From NCBI GenBank assembly GCA_944372425.1, contig CALVZC010000003.1:6570-70569 (forward strand): 64,000 nt of DNA, written 5' to 3'. How positions within the stretch are numbered: the stretch's first letter is position 1; every line of letters begins with the position of its first letter. Origin of the DNA: an uncultured Bacilli bacterium (lineage in GTDB: Bacteria; Bacillota_I; Bacilli_A; RF39; UBA660). A program made the position numbers and the translations under genes. Under the pieces are notes generated by a model. The model saw nothing but the letters and a program-made list of their open reading frames with translations, did not search any database and was not told where the DNA came from. Below are positions 50,661-59,758 of the stretch, in pieces.

Positions 50661-50972
50661 TTAAGCATTATATCCTGAATTAAGTAATTCATTTGCTCTT
50701 TCTTCTATCTTCTTATCTGCTGCTTCGTATGATGTAGCAGTATTATCTAAAAATGTTGCATATTTAGTAATTGCATCATAAAAATCTGTAAATTTACCAG
50801 AAAGGCTAGTATATCTTGCTCTTAAGTTTTCAGCAGCGGCACTTTCCCAAGATGATGCTGTTCCATTTATTGTAGAAGTAGCTTCATCCAAAGTAGAGCG
50901 CATATCACTAACATTTTTTCGTAATGAATTAGCTGCGTTACGCAATTCAACTGAATTTACTTGCATTTGCAT
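50661..50972 (-). CDS. WXG100-family protein (W-x-S variant)
   Basis: 103 aa, predicted helix-turn-helix. The central turn is TASSWESAAAE. Ala/Thr-rich, paired with the esxA-like gene. Confidence 0.7.
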   Translation of the reverse strand: MQMQVNSVELRNAANSLRKNVSDMRSTLDEATSTINGTASSWESAAAENLRARYTSLSGKFTDFYDAITKYATFLDNTATSYEAADKKIEERANELLNSGYNA

Positions 50973-51002
50973 ATATATATTCCTCCTTTTTTATATTTAA
51001 TA

Positions 51003-58100: not shown

Positions 58101-59758
58101 TAATTATCTGTTATAATTATATAATATGGTGAAAAAGACTTGTAATCTTCTTTATCTTGATTAATTCTTGGTTCTAAAACTCTTTCCAAATATAATGAAA
58201 TTTCACACATTTCTTCATAGTTAGTAGCAAAAAAACGCATTTGTTTATCATTACTCCAAGTATGTGGCAAAATTTTAACATACTCCCAATCATCAACATG
58301 TTTTTCATCTATAAAAAATACAAATTTTACATCTTCATAACTATGAAAAGTTATTATTTGTAATAGTAACTGTTTCATAAACTCTTTAGTCTCATTCCAC
58401 TTACCTACAGCCCCTAAAATATACTTTTCAGTTAAAGAAATACTTATAGGTACATCTTTTAAATCTTTAGATTTATCAACTAAAGTATTAAGTATATCCT
58501 TTAAATTATCTTCATCCATAGAAAAATGTTCTTCTGGATACTTAATATCCAATTCTAATGGCTTATCACCTATTCCTAATCTTAAAGACAAAAAGTCAGA
58601 ATGATCTATTTTTCTTTCCCATAATTGTCTATTTTTAGTAAGAATTATTTTTTCACACTCGTCCAAAGTTATAAAATTTTCAATTAAAATTTGTTTCTGC
58701 TTTTTCATTATCAAATCGATTTCATTTCTTTTTTCTTCGATATATGCGCCATATTTTTCTTGACGCTCTTTTTCACGTTTTATTTTTTGTTTTTTCTGAT
58801 ATCTTTTTGTTAATAATGGCCATAAAAACATACTTGCTAACATTCCCACTGCCATTACTAACGATGGTAGTGATTGTTGCCAACTTCTTTCACCAGCACT
58901 TATTGCATCAACGGTATTATATAAACTTAAAATTGAAGACATCCCCATTGTCATCATTGGCCCCATTGTATAAATGAAAGGCATTTCTTCTTGTTTTTCT
59001 TTACCAGGTGGAGGATCAATTACCATTTCTTCTTTTTCAATAATAGTCCTAAAACGTGGTGAGCGAAAGAAATAATCATTTTCTTCATATACTTCCAACT
59101 CAGCATTTTTTTCTTCATCAGTAGGTTCAATTGCCACATTTGGTTTTTCATATAACGAAAAAACGTCACTGCTATACTTAACACGATCAAAAGGATTATT
59201 AGTTATTATAAAATTACCAAGAACAACTATTTTTAAGCCAGTTATAAAAATAACATCGCCATGATTTAAAATTTTAGTTCCAATTAACCTTTCATTATTA
59301 ACATAGGTGCCAAACTTACTATTTAAATCTGTTATTTGCCAAATACCATTATTATATGATAGTTTTGCATGCTCGTCAGACACCGTTGGTAAATTGAATA
59401 TAACTTTACATAGTTGACTTTTTCCTATTAAAATTTCTGTTGACCCTTTAACTTCTATTTGAATACTATTAGAATCATAAACAGGACAACAATATAATAA
59501 GGCAATTTCCTCTTTTTCAATTTGGACATAATGAAAACTATAATTTTTTAGAACAACTTCATTTATAATACGATCTTCTTCAATTACCTTATTATCATTA
59601 TTACTTTTTAATAACCATTCCCCGTTTTTTTCCTCAATACTTAATAATTTTCTTTCATTACCACTTTTGTCATTATCTGATACCCAATATGTACCATTAA
59701 CTGCAATTGGTAATGAAACAGAATATATTTTATCTTTCTTTATTAACAAAACTAACAC
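55160..59758 (-). CDS. essC: T7SS ATPase EssC/YukB (FHA-FtsK/SpoIIIE)
   Basis: 1532 aa. Evidence in order along the protein:
- N-terminal FHA region (ILIGKS...SDEHAKLSYNNGIWQITDLNSKFGTYVNNERL).
- Two TMs (MPFIYTMGPMMTMGMSSILSL and LPSLVMAVGMLASMFLWPLL).
- P-loop GLIAGMTGSGKSE with Walker B LLIISDEFAEL.
- A second P-loop, YGSAGSGKEQ.
- GTG start after a GGTGGG SD. Confidence 0.9.
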   Translation of the reverse strand: MLVLLIKKDKIYSVSLPIAVNGTYWVSDNDKSGNERKLLSIEEKNGEWLLKSNNDNKVIEEDRIINEVVLKNYSFHYVQIEKEEIALLYCCPVYDSNSIQIEVKGSTEILIGKSQLCKVIFNLPTVSDEHAKLSYNNGIWQITDLNSKFGTYVNNERLIGTKILNHGDVIFITGLKIVVLGNFIITNNPFDRVKYSSDVFSLYEKPNVAIEPTDEEKNAELEVYEENDYFFRSPRFRTIIEKEEMVIDPPPGKEKQEEMPFIYTMGPMMTMGMSSILSLYNTVDAISAGERSWQQSLPSLVMAVGMLASMFLWPLLTKRYQKKQKIKREKERQEKYGAYIEEKRNEIDLIMKKQKQILIENFITLDECEKIILTKNRQLWERKIDHSDFLSLRLGIGDKPLELDIKYPEEHFSMDEDNLKDILNTLVDKSKDLKDVPISISLTEKYILGAVGKWNETKEFMKQLLLQIITFHSYEDVKFVFFIDEKHVDDWEYVKILPHTWSNDKQMRFFATNYEEMCEISLYLERVLEPRINQDKEDYKSFSPYYIIITDNYKISKNVQIMVKALKSKTNIGMDVIVLNENLSTLPNECTTFLSINGKNGAVFESELTSDKQKEFIIDNYMQSNFISCCRKVANIPIKFTKDSYALPNLVDFLEMYGVGKVEQLNSIFRWKMSNPTSTLQAPIGIDSNGMLFKLDIHEKVHGPHGLIAGMTGSGKSEFIITYILSLAVNYHPNDVSFILIDYKGGGLAGAFKNDDTGVKLPHLAGTITNLDTLEMNRSLVSIQSELRRRQSVFNEARQLLNEGTIDIYKYQKFYHEGLVKEPISHLLIISDEFAELKAQQPEFMDQLISAARIGRSLGVHLILATQKPSGVVNDQIWSNARFRVCLKVQDKSDSNDMLKVPDAALIKQTGRFYLQVGYNEFFGLGQSAWCGAPYFPTEKVKKKIDTSMNFVNNIGAVIKESDEIRIDKVAAQGEQLTSIVKYLSDIAEKENIKIKQLWLDKIPAFIFLDKLATKYNYTVSSFIINPIIGEFDDPFNQRQGLLTLPISTDGNAIVYGSAGSGKEQMLNAIIYSTMIMHKPEEVNFYILEFGAESLRVFSKSPHVGDILYINDSEKISNLFKMLKTEVERRKKLFADYSGDYQTYVKSSGSSVPNYIVIINNYEAFTEVYDNYEDIILQLTREGTKFGIYFIFTTSASNMIRYRLAQNFKQKLVLQLNDENDYSSILGNVRGTKPSDIVGRGLIDLGAIYEFQTASICEPDKVNDTIRETCNMLSEKFEYRAKAVPILPAKVTYSFVKDYLKGINSIPVGVEKKSLKVSTVDLLRNYNTVITSLDLMTIKPFITEVIKEISLLGNIKFSVIDAEEILDNSKFSNVNYYSKGIDSEFLNLYNEIKNVQETYKNSNYDKNSIANIPITVCVICGIDKFSAKLSLENKNLFGKMFEYGKELEKYCFVLVDSIDKFKKIEYDDWYRNTVNNNRGIWVGDGIANQFAIKLAKTSKELYEEIGNRFGYTVERGIPVLIKLLEEELTKNE

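What the first reader, a model, noticed from the sequence alone, without database searches (positions are those of the whole stretch)
50661..59758. Stripped-down type VIIb-like secretion locus: EssC, YukD and WXG100 proteins but no EssA, EssB/YukC or EsaA/YueB
The locus contains an unmistakable EssC, a YukD/EsaB ubiquitin-like protein, four WXG100-size proteins and a large WXG/LXG-like effector.

The characterised Bacillota T7SSb machines (S. aureus ess, B. subtilis yuk) also require three other membrane components:
- EssB/YukC, a pseudokinase with one central TM.
- EsaA/YueB, a polytopic protein of about 1000 aa.
- EssA.

No ORF between ileS (61181) and the terminator at 50629 fits any of these. 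The only extra protein is a 392-aa, TM-less repeat protein in the position where essB normally sits. Gene order is also inverted relative to the canonical locus: essC comes first and the esxA pair last, under its own promoter.

Two readings are possible. This could be a minimal or divergent T7SS architecture with EssC as the only membrane component. Alternatively, the unknown neighbouring proteins may replace the missing parts.
Basis: partly seen in the sequence, partly recalled or inferred. Interest (0 to 1): 0.75.

Follow-up and report, generated by a model that had tools for sequence, protein, structure and literature searches.

The report
Pared-down type VII secretion locus
An uncultured small-genome gut bacterium carries a type VII protein-secretion locus that keeps the motor ATPase, its ubiquitin-like partner and the small secreted proteins. 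The three membrane proteins that the textbook Gram-positive system needs are not encoded nearby, and the same pared-down layout recurs in its relatives.

Summary
On the minus strand of 50620-59758 lies one operon-like block:
- a T7SSb-type EssC (TIGR03928, 1042 bits; best solved relative is B. subtilis YukB);
- an overlapping 83-aa gene, modelled with high confidence as a ubiquitin-like fold closest to the EccD domain of ESX-5;
- a 392-aa soluble helical repeat protein;
- two WXG100-like proteins;
- a 523-aa protein with a conserved helical N-terminus and a variable C-terminus;
- a conserved WXG100 pair;
- an AT-rich terminator.

No EssB/YukC, EsaA or EssA signal was found. Pfam covered every window gene, and custom HMMs covered 594 kb of window plus related loci.

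In relatives with 40-89% EssC identity, only EssC and the Ubl protein are always together. Two species carry just essC-ubl-esxA-esxB between housekeeping genes.

The 392-aa protein diverges as fast as the effector genes (30-41% versus 74-94% for core genes). It is missing from minimal loci and recurs in an orphan effector cassette. It therefore looks like effector cargo, not an EssB substitute. The 282- and 362-aa membrane proteins lie beyond the terminator and are missing in some relatives.

Verdict: a probable new reduced variant of T7SS, not among the published a-j arrangements. Genome-wide absence of the missing parts could not be tested.

The parts
55160..59758 (-). essC: membrane FtsK/SpoIIIE-type T7SS ATPase (1532 aa). 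It has two N-terminal FHA-like domains, two TM helices (about residues 259-317) and ATPase domains with Walker A motifs at 710 and 1057.
   Evidence: TIGR03928 1041.7 bits and Pfam FHA + FtsK_SpoIIIE. YukB (9qks) E=4.8e-130. Identity to relatives is 74-89% in the close clade, with a local dip at residues 1301-1400. Motifs.
54916..55167 (-). Ubiquitin-like EsaB/YukD-type protein (83 aa, no C-terminal Gly-Gly). It overlaps the essC stop codon by 8 nt.
   Evidence: AF2 pLDDT 94.2. Foldseek matches ubiquitin and Ubl structures at E about 1e-5, with the best TM-score (0.80) to the EccD5 Ubl domain, 7npt/7np7. It follows EssC in every relative examined, down to 40% EssC identity. No Pfam or NCBIfam hit. 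hhalign to canonical EsaB is weak, E=0.0077.
53725..54903 (-). X: 392-aa soluble protein. It has an N-terminal helical hairpin (41-116), a disordered linker (123-151) and a C-terminal all-helical domain with three repeats (160-391). It is the first gene of the variable effector cassette.
   Evidence: AF2 pLDDT 83.9. No PDB or BFVD fold match. No Pfam, NCBIfam or PDB sequence match. Repeat z-scores 7.9 and 9.0. 167 representative homologues. 30-41% identity between species whose EssC is 74-89% identical. The C-terminal domain occurs at the end of longer proteins without signal peptides, including a Phage_lysozyme2 fusion in an orphan cassette.
53346..53642 (-). WXG100-like 98-aa protein (WQG motif). 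It is Lap-like, a probable targeting partner of the 523-aa protein.
   Evidence: Pfam WXG100 E=0.018, sub-threshold. hhalign probability 97.3% to the 96-aa EsxA-like family. 25-42% identity in relatives.
53020..53349 (-). WXG100-like 109-aa protein (WQG motif). It is Lap-like, the second probable targeting partner.
   Evidence: Pfam WXG100 E=0.0052 and NF035934 E=8e-8. hhalign probability 96.2% to the 103-aa EsxB-like family. 27-50% identity in relatives.
51452..53023 (-). 523-aa (probably 516-aa, starting at 53002) candidate polymorphic effector. The helical N-terminal domain of about 200 aa is conserved and ends in a GIxGN..GGxLG motif. The C-terminus is variable.
   Evidence: Only the N-terminal 150-235 aa aligns in most relatives (25-38%), and total lengths range from 426 to 816 aa. 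It is preceded by two WXG100-like genes, as LXG toxins are. No Pfam LXG hit and no PDB sequence hit.
51367..51395 (-). Promoter-like site (TTGACA-17-TACGAT) in the 158-bp gap upstream of the esx pair.
   Evidence: This is a consensus match only, in AT-rich DNA where such matches occur at background frequency.
51003..51293 (-). esxA-like WXG100 protein (96 aa, WQG motif), a core component.
   Evidence: Pfam WXG100 E=7e-10. 77-94% identical across most of the close clade (41% in L016). Orthologues directly follow the Ubl gene in the minimal loci L030 and L031.
50661..50972 (-). esxB-like WXG100 protein (103 aa, with a C-terminal YEAAD = YxxxD motif), a core component.
   Evidence: Pfam WXG100 E=1.6e-12 and NF035934 E=1e-19. 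It is hit by a canonical EsxA HMM at E=2.5e-5. 74-90% identical in most close relatives, 49% in L016.
50620..50649 (-). Intrinsic-terminator-like AT-rich hairpin plus T-run. It ends the transcription unit.
   Evidence: Read directly from the sequence: AGATACAAT-AATT-ATTGTATCT followed by 8 T.

Best explanation
This is a reduced, T7SSb-derived type VII secretion locus of an uncultured, low-GC (about 25%), peptidoglycan-bearing, probably spore-forming gut member of the Bacilli. Its relatives have genomes of about 1.3 Mb.

The conserved machine module has four genes: essC, a ubiquitin-like tsxB/yukD-type gene translationally coupled to it, and an esxA/esxB WXG100 pair.

Proposed mechanism (inferred by analogy to YukB/YukD and EccC/EccD):
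- EssC oligomerises through its two TM helices to form the channel and the motor.
- The Ubl protein binds the EssC cytoplasmic DUF and FHA region and stabilises assembly.
- The EsxA/EsxB heterodimer is the obligatory co-secreted substrate and activator, recognised through the YxxxD tail.

In this species and its closest relatives, a fast-evolving four-gene effector cassette sits between the Ubl gene and the esx pair. It comprises X (392 aa), two Lap-like WXG100 proteins and a 523-aa LXG-like polymorphic protein. X is most likely a co-exported cargo or carrier protein of that cassette, not a machine part.

EssB/YukC, EsaA/YueB and EssA/YueC are not encoded in or near the locus. The system probably works without them.
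For: Shown:
- EssC is T7SSb-type.
- The 83-aa protein has a Ubl fold nearest to the EccD Ubl domain.
- The four small proteins are mutually homologous WXG100 proteins.
- EssC and the Ubl gene are adjacent in all 20+ loci, spanning 40-100% EssC identity and different flanks: ileS, the suf operon, rpsF-ssb-rpsR, rplM-rpsI and murA. L022 carries two EssC-Ubl pairs in tandem.
- L030 and L031 have only essC-ubl-esxA-esxB between housekeeping genes.
- Core genes are 74-94% identical where X, the Laps and the LXG-like gene are 25-50% identical.
- EssC shows a variable patch at residues 1301-1400 in the last ATPase domain.
- An orphan X-Lap-Lap-LXG-like cassette occurs with no essC on its short contig.
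- Pfam found no EssB, EsaA or EssA in any window gene.
- HMMs built from B. mycoides and Listeria EsaA, EssA and EssB found no hit better than E=0.048 in 3709 six-frame ORFs over 594 kb. All such hits were short spurious ORFs. The EsxA control HMM scored 1e-5 to 1e-6.
- Precedent: published T7SSc-j variants replace or lack the T7SSb accessory proteins, and T7SSg has only A1, A2, B, C and L (PMC11217815).
Against: - Only about 5% of the genome is in the window. Unlinked genes for EssB, EsaA, EssA or other membrane partners cannot be excluded.
- EssC retains its FHA domains, which bind the EssB pseudokinase in B. subtilis (PMC12637312). This suggests some partner still exists.
- The YukB/C/D core is reported as conserved across T7SSb.
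- The Ubl protein is not recognised by the YukD sequence models, and the profile-profile match to canonical EsaB is weak.
- The LXG-like assignment rests on architecture only, with no Pfam LXG or toxin domain.
- No immunity gene follows the 523-aa gene in this species.
- No expression or secretion data exist.
Confidence: 0.6

Rival explanations
1. This is an ordinary T7SSb whose accessory membrane genes (essB, esaA, essA) are simply encoded elsewhere in the genome. The locus looks stripped only because the system is split.
For: The window covers only 64 kb of a roughly 1.3-Mb genome. EssC keeps FHA domains and scores above the T7SSb EssC equivalog cut-off. Effector cassettes can be unlinked from essC in this group (L027).
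Against: In characterised T7SSb loci the accessory genes are contiguous with essC, as in B. mycoides pBMX_1 and Listeria. None lies within 10 kb of essC in about 20 related loci with at least five different flanking contexts. The reduced module is kept intact whenever its genomic context changes.
Confidence: 0.22
2. Lineage-specific neighbours substitute for the missing parts. The 392-aa X protein would act as an EssB-like cytoplasmic scaffold. The 282-aa single-pass and 362-aa C39-like membrane proteins would act as EssA/EsaA-like envelope components.
For: X sits next to the Ubl gene and is conserved in position across the clade with 74% or higher EssC identity. The 282- and 362-aa pair stays next to the esx pair in L008, L012, L018 and L019, even where the ABC transporter is absent. 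Both are membrane proteins.
Against: - X has no TM segment and no pseudokinase or other known fold.
- X diverges like the effectors, at 30-41% identity.
- X is absent from L010, L022-L026, L030 and L031 and recurs in an orphan cassette.
- The 282- and 362-aa genes lie after the terminator and are absent in L016 and L017 and all more distant loci.
- Their only match is a sub-threshold Peptidase_C39_2 hit for the 362-aa protein; neither matches any T7SS family.
Confidence: 0.1
3. This is a decaying remnant: a non-functional leftover of a T7SSb in a genome undergoing reduction.
For: The lineage has a small genome (about 1.3 Mb). Components essential in model systems are missing.
Against: All ORFs are intact. 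EssC is 74-89% and the esx pair 74-94% identical across species in most of the close clade (41-49% in L016), while neighbouring cassette genes have diverged to 25-40%. Walker A motifs are intact. Effector cassettes are actively swapped, with different C-termini in L008 and L018. The Ubl family has more than 3000 members.
Confidence: 0.05

Closest known systems
T7SSb (S. aureus Ess, B. subtilis Yuk, Listeria and B. mycoides loci)
   Same: EssC has N-terminal FHA domains, two TM helices and FtsK-type ATPase domains, and it scores above the TIGR03928 cut-off. Its best solved relative is YukB. The locus also has a small ubiquitin-like protein without a Gly-Gly tail, WXG100 EsxA-type proteins, and an LXG-like protein preceded by two small WXG100-like (Lap-like) partners.
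   Different: No EssB/YukC, EsaA/YueB or EssA/YueC in the locus, in the window or in related loci. There are two different core WXG100 proteins, whereas Garrett et al. report one for T7SSb. The gene order is essC-first. The Ubl protein is not recognised by the YukD models.
T7SSg of Acetivibrio and Paenibacillus (Garrett, Higginson & Palmer 2024, PMC11217815)
   Same: It is the most pared-down published arrangement: TsgA1/A2 (a WXG100 pair), TsgB (Ubl) and TsgC (ATPase) plus one further protein.
   Different: TsgC lacks FHA domains, whereas this EssC has them. No DUF5050 beta-propeller (TsgL) and no adjacent Tad pilus genes were found here.
T7SSf and T7SSj of Clostridia (same paper)
   Same: The TsxC ATPases carry FHA domains and cluster near T7SSb. 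TsxA and TsxB are present, and LXG-like substrates come with Lap-like partners.
   Different: No PPM phosphatase, no DUF6382-FHA protein, no AAA+/TadZ-like ATPase, no Ser/Thr kinase and no large Ig-like TsxI protein were found anywhere in the window.
LXG toxin / Lap1-Lap2 pre-secretion complexes of T7SSb
   Same: Two small WXG100-like genes lie immediately upstream of a larger protein. That protein has a conserved helical N-terminal domain and a C-terminus that differs between close relatives.
   Different: There is no Pfam LXG match and no recognisable toxin domain, and no adjacent immunity gene in this species. An additional conserved first gene (X) has no counterpart in described LXG cassettes.

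Membership tests
T7SSb (Ess/Yuk) | [quoted passage not shown] | tested here: met
   TIGR03928 1041.7 bits (cut-off 778.4). Pfam FHA E=1.2e-14 and FtsK_SpoIIIE E=4e-47. YukB (9qks) E=4.8e-130.
T7SSb (Ess/Yuk) | EsxA: WXG100 protein encoded in the cluster | tested here: met
   The 96-aa and 103-aa proteins pass Pfam WXG100 (39.4 and 47.9 bits; cut-off 27.3). A canonical EsxA HMM hits the 103-aa family.
T7SSb (Ess/Yuk) | EsaB/YukD: small ubiquitin-fold protein without a Gly-Gly tail | tested here: met
   The fold criterion is met: pLDDT 94.2 and TM-score 0.80 to the EccD5 Ubl domain. The protein ends in ...EIILI. Sequence models do not recognise it. hhalign to B. mycoides and Listeria EsaB gives only E=0.0077.
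T7SSb (Ess/Yuk) | EssB/YukC: single-pass membrane pseudokinase | tested here: not met
   No PF10140 or TIGR03926 hit in any window gene. A custom EssB HMM gave its best E=0.048 on a 41-codon spurious ORF within 594 kb of window plus loci. The rest of the genome is not testable.
T7SSb (Ess/Yuk) | EsaA/YueB: polytopic protein of about 1000 aa with a large extracellular domain | tested here: not met
   No hit with the custom EsaA HMM (best E=0.27). The only large polytopic neighbour is a MacB-type FtsX permease paired with its ABC ATPase. The rest of the genome is not testable.
T7SSb (Ess/Yuk) | EssA/YueC: small single-pass membrane protein | tested here: not met
   No PF10661 or TIGR03927 hit. 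The custom EssA HMM gave its best E=0.58. No hidden small TM ORF lies in the gaps upstream of essC, and the gaps inside the locus (12-158 bp) are too short for an EssA-sized gene. The rest of the genome is not testable.
T7SSg (Garrett et al. 2024) | TsgC without FHA domains, a DUF5050 beta-propeller TsgL, and adjacent Tad pilus genes | tested here: not met
   The FHA domain is present. No DUF5050 or Tad family was found in any window gene.
T7SSf / T7SSj / T7SSe (Garrett et al. 2024) | PPM phosphatase, DUF6382-FHA protein, AAA+ TsfV, Ser/Thr kinase TsxD, Ig-like TsxI | tested here: not met
   None of these Pfam families was hit in the window or in the Pfam-annotated flanks of L001, L008, L010, L030 and L031. 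A phylogenetic placement of EssC against the published TsxC set was not done.
LXG polymorphic toxins (PF04740) | N-terminal LXG domain recognised by the family model | tested here: not met
   The 523-aa protein and its homologues give no Pfam hit. A profile of the N-terminal domain has no significant PDB sequence match. Only the architecture and the Lap-like neighbours resemble LXG systems.
WXG100 (PF06013), for the 98-aa and 109-aa proteins | Helical hairpin of about 100 aa with a central W-x-G, homologous to EsxA/B | tested here: met
   WQG motifs are present. Pfam scores fall below the cut-off (15.7 and 17.5 bits). hhalign gives 97.3% (98 aa vs 96 aa) and 96.2% (109 aa vs 103 aa) probability.

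The most novel reading that the evidence does not exclude
A natural four-gene minimal type VII secretion system (essC, ubl, esxA, esxB) in which EssC is the only membrane protein. It would be widespread in uncultured small-genome, wall-bearing gut Bacilli and would form a further T7SS subtype beyond the published a-j. It would show that a T7SSb-type, FHA-bearing EssC can work without the YukC/EssB scaffold, EsaA or EssA. The 392-aa X family would be a new class of T7SS cargo or carrier protein.
Probability: 0.4. Interest if true: 0.8.

Novelty: new variant of a known kind. Interest (0 to 1): 0.62.

Why it matters
Structural work on B. subtilis presents YukB/YukC/YukD as the conserved building block of T7SSb (PMC12637312). 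Genetics in S. aureus and B. subtilis finds EssA, EssB and EsaA essential.

A clade in which a T7SSb-type EssC travels only with its ubiquitin-like partner and an EsxA/B pair would give the smallest natural T7SS known. It would be a tractable minimal system for asking what forms the channel, what the FHA domains and the Ubl protein do without a pseudokinase, and how substrates cross the cell wall without EsaA.

It would also extend the T7SS variant catalogue, which was built on RefSeq isolates, into abundant uncultured gut lineages. In addition, it flags a 167-cluster protein family (X) with no known fold as a likely T7SS-associated cargo.

Tried and rejected
1. Wall-less host explaining the loss of EsaA. 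Rejected: the window encodes Mur ligases, MreC, RodA/FtsW, M23 and polysaccharide-deacetylase proteins, plus CotZ-like spore-coat proteins.
2. X as an EssB or EsaA analogue. Pfam, NCBIfam, a PDB sequence profile and Foldseek against PDB and BFVD all gave nothing. The comparative pattern also argues against a machine role.
3. The genes upstream of EssC in L022-L024 (96, 150 and 72 aa) as esxA-essA-esaB. Rejected: read from the sequences in L022 and L023 they are rpsF-ssb-rpsR, and L024 has the same gene sizes.
4. The 82-aa gene upstream of the orphan cassette in L027 as a Ubl gene. Rejected: it is a hydrophobic protein with no hit to the Ubl profile.
5. Pfam on larger X-domain proteins, to learn its function from fusion partners. 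Most gave no domains. The only informative fusion was Phage_lysozyme2.
6. Pfam on C-termini of the LXG-like homologues, looking for toxin domains. None was found.
7. Relating the X N-terminal hairpin or the LXG-like N-terminus to WXG100 by hhalign. Probabilities were below 3%.
8. Naming the organism through exact-sequence cluster names. None carried a name. Only record titles such as 'uncultured Bacilli / Mycoplasmatota / Tenericutes bacterium' are available.
9. Literature searches for T7SS in RF39, RFN20 or Mollicutes-like lineages, or for a subtype beyond j. Nothing was found in the held library.
It was redone with database homologues.

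
Full report
**What is there**

The window has about 25% GC, and almost every gene lies on the minus strand. 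Between ileS (61181 onward) and an AT-rich hairpin with a T-run at 50620-50649, the minus strand carries these genes in order:
- a 302-aa gene of unknown function (60018-60926);
- essC (55160-59758, 1532 aa);
- an 83-aa gene that overlaps the essC stop by 8 nt (54916-55167);
- a 392-aa gene (53725-54903), called X here;
- 98-aa and 109-aa genes (53346-53642 and 53020-53349);
- a 523-aa gene (51452-53023);
- a 158-bp gap;
- 96-aa and 103-aa genes (51003-51293 and 50661-50972).

After the hairpin come a 282-aa single-pass membrane protein, a 362-aa protein, an ABC/FtsX pair, a P-type ATPase and MscS. The 362-aa protein has a signal peptide, two TM segments and a weak Peptidase_C39_2 match.

**Identity of the parts**

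EssC is a T7SSb-type ATPase.
- It scores 1041.7 bits on TIGR03928 (cut-off 778.4) and carries Pfam FHA and FtsK_SpoIIIE domains.
- Its best solved relative is B. subtilis YukB, E=4.8e-130.
- It has Walker A motifs at residues 710 and 1057. In its FHA2 domain the canonical Arg is Lys and the Asn of the NG motif is Phe. From general knowledge of FHA domains, I read this as degenerate phosphothreonine binding, as in T7SSb EssC.

The 83-aa protein is a ubiquitin-like protein.
- No Pfam or NCBIfam YukD model matches it, and none of more than 3000 homologues carries a precomputed Pfam hit.
- Its AlphaFold model (pLDDT 94.2) is a ubiquitin-like beta-grasp. Foldseek E-values to ubiquitin-like structures are about 1e-5, and the highest TM-score (0.80) is to the EccD5 Ubl domain in the ESX-5 complex.
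- It lacks a Gly-Gly tail.
- It shares a Y-[DE]-x-x-I-P strand with canonical EsaB from B. mycoides and Listeria (hhalign E=0.0077), and by eye also a [DN]-G-x-x-I-x-x-L end outside the aligned region.

The four small proteins are mutually homologous WXG100 proteins.
- The 96- and 103-aa proteins pass Pfam WXG100.
- The 98-aa protein pairs with the 96-aa family and the 109-aa protein with the 103-aa family (hhalign probabilities 97% and 96%).
- The upstream pair therefore looks like a diverged copy of the EsxA/EsxB pair.

**The missing components**

- Every gene in the 64-kb window was scanned against Pfam, and the locus also against NCBIfam. There was no YukC/EssB, EssA or EsaA hit. There was also no PPM phosphatase, kinase, extra FHA protein, AAA+ ATPase, DUF5050 or Tad component.
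- As an independent test I took a canonical locus from B. mycoides pBMX_1 (esxA-esaA-essA-esaB-essB-essC) and its Listeria counterpart. I built HMMs for EsaA, EssA and EssB and searched all 3709 six-frame ORFs of the window plus 31 related loci (594 kb).
- The best E-values were 0.27, 0.58 and 0.048, all on short spurious ORFs. The EsxA control HMM found the 103-aa family at 1e-5 to 1e-6.
- No small TM ORF hides in the gaps upstream of essC, and the gaps inside the locus are too short to hold one.

**Comparative genomics**

Exact copies of the locus occur on metagenome contigs of up to 80 kb. Relatives are uncultured 'Bacilli', 'Mycoplasmatota', 'Tenericutes' or 'Erysipelotrichaceae' MAGs, including a circular 1.31-Mb genome (OZ006981.1). 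The window encodes Mur ligases, MreC, RodA/FtsW, sporulation-type sigma factors and CotZ-like proteins. The organism therefore has a cell wall and probably forms spores.

- EssC is always followed directly by the Ubl gene. This holds across loci with 40-100% EssC identity and with at least five different upstream contexts. L022 carries two such pairs.
- In L030 and L031 (51% and 55% EssC identity) the locus is just essC-ubl-esxA-esxB, set between housekeeping genes.
- In the clade with 74% or higher EssC identity, the cassette X-Lap-Lap-LXG-like sits between the Ubl gene and the esx pair.
- Within that clade, identities to the window are 74-89% for EssC, 75-90% for the Ubl protein and 74-94% for EsxA and EsxB (41-49% in L016). 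They are only 30-41% for X, 25-50% for the Laps and 25-38% for the 523-aa protein (N-terminus only).
- EssC has a local identity dip at residues 1301-1400 in its last ATPase domain (63% versus about 88% against L019). This recalls the essC variants of S. aureus and Listeria that co-vary with downstream substrates. That comparison is my own knowledge, not tested here.

**The 392-aa protein X**

- X has no TM segment.
- Its model (pLDDT 83.9) shows an N-terminal helical hairpin, a disordered Gly/Ser/Pro-rich linker and a C-terminal all-helical domain with pLDDT above 94. That domain contains three repeats of a helix / short LL-helix / helix unit.
- It matches nothing in Pfam, NCBIfam, PDB sequences, PDB folds or BFVD.
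- An exhaustive profile search found 167 representative clusters.
- In some of these the C-terminal domain ends longer proteins that lack signal peptides. One carries an N-terminal Phage_lysozyme2 domain.
- That fusion gene heads an orphan cassette (fusion - WXG - WXG - LXG-like start) on a 5-kb contig that carries no essC. Its upstream neighbours are VanY and DUF4234 genes.

Taken together with its rate of divergence and its absence from the minimal loci, this places X in the effector cassette. It is probably an exported cargo or carrier protein, not a replacement for EssB.

**The 282- and 362-aa proteins**

They lie downstream of the terminator and are missing from L016, L017 and all more distant loci. 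Apart from a sub-threshold Peptidase_C39_2 hit for the 362-aa protein, they have no family or PDB sequence match, and none to T7SS parts. I treat them as neighbours, not components.

**Comparison with known systems**

Garrett, Higginson and Palmer (2024, PMC11217815) defined T7SSc-j from RefSeq genomes. All keep TsxC and TsxA, nearly all keep TsxB, and each has its own accessory set.
- The simplest, T7SSg, has A1, A2, B and C plus a DUF5050 propeller. Its ATPase lacks FHA domains.
- The present arrangement pairs a T7SSb-type, FHA-bearing EssC with only a Ubl protein and a WXG100 pair. It matches none of a-j on the features tested.
- No later subtype, and no T7SS report for these lineages, appeared in the held literature.
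- Oka et al. (2025, PMC12637312) describe YukB/C/D as the conserved T7SSb building block, with YukD bridging the YukB FHA and DUF regions to the YukC pseudokinase. A YukC-less relative is therefore a meaningful departure.

**Limits**

- I could not scan the rest of the genome, place EssC phylogenetically against the published TsxC set, or model complexes.
- The LXG-like call is architectural only.
- The promoter upstream of the esx pair is one consensus match against an AT-rich background.

**Verdict**

The 'minimal T7SS' reading is the best-supported explanation (confidence about 0.6). A split canonical system is the main rival (about 0.2). This is a new variant of a known kind of system. It is of real interest to T7SS specialists, but it needs a whole-genome scan and functional tests.

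Noticed in passing
window 48666-50583 (-): A conserved gene pair lies just after the T7SS terminator. One is a 282-aa protein with a single N-terminal TM segment. The other is a 362-aa protein with a signal peptide, two TM segments and a weak Peptidase_C39_2-like C-terminal domain (E=2.5e-4). The pair is kept next to the esx genes in L008, L012, L018 and L019 but is absent in L016 and L017. Its function is unknown.
   Followed up: partly
window 45584-48750 (-); L026 4236-7537 (-): A MacB-type ABC ATPase and FtsX permease pair lies 1.9 kb beyond the T7SS terminator here, just past the 282/362-aa pair. It also lies about 2.4 kb upstream of essC in the distant relative L026. The ATPase there is 70% identical although EssC is only 42% identical. 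This may be chance synteny in small genomes or a functional link.
   Followed up: no
L027 2766-5260; protein P0230: An orphan effector cassette in another metagenome. Its first gene fuses a Phage_lysozyme2 peptidoglycan-hydrolase domain to the X hairpin and the X C-terminal domain. Two WXG100-like genes and the start of an LXG-like gene follow. No essC lies on the 5-kb contig.
   Followed up: partly
window 55160-59758, EssC residues 1301-1400: This is a locally variable patch in the last ATPase domain: 63% identity to L019 against about 88% elsewhere, and 35-58% in other close relatives. It sits next to the fast-evolving downstream cassette, which suggests a co-varying substrate-recognition region.
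   Followed up: partly
L022 2-4573 and 10001-14837: One MAG contig carries two EssC-Ubl gene pairs about 5.4 kb apart. Both EssC copies are about 41% identical to the window EssC. They are paralogous T7SS cores in one small genome.
   Followed up: partly
window 60018-60926 (-): A 302-aa soluble protein with no family match lies between ileS and essC. Homologues in L013, L015, L017 and L019 are only 26-42% identical, and it is absent in L011, L014 and L016. It varies like the effector cassette and could be an immunity or accessory protein.
   Followed up: no
window 25208-26008 (+): Two tandem CotZ-like spore-coat genes form a small plus-strand island together with a RodA/FtsW/SpoVE-family gene at 26260-27522. 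The rest of the window is almost entirely minus-strand, with GC skew of about -0.2 to -0.35 nearly throughout (only about -0.06 in the bin at 26-28 kb). This implies a spore-former and a single replichore.
   Followed up: no
window 20709-22094, 22297-23532, 27513-29525 (-): Three sizeable ORFs (461, 411 and 670 aa) have no Pfam match at E<=1e-3 and no convincing TM segments.
   Followed up: no
window 53020-53642 versus 50661-51293: The Lap-like pair looks like a diverged duplicate of the EsxA/EsxB pair. The 98-aa protein is closest to the 96-aa family and the 109-aa protein to the 103-aa family by hhalign.
   Followed up: yes
L026 7527-9833 (+): A 768-aa HerA/DUF87-type ATPase with a weak FtsK_SpoIIIE match lies directly upstream of essC in this distant relative. 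It is not seen in the other loci.
   Followed up: no
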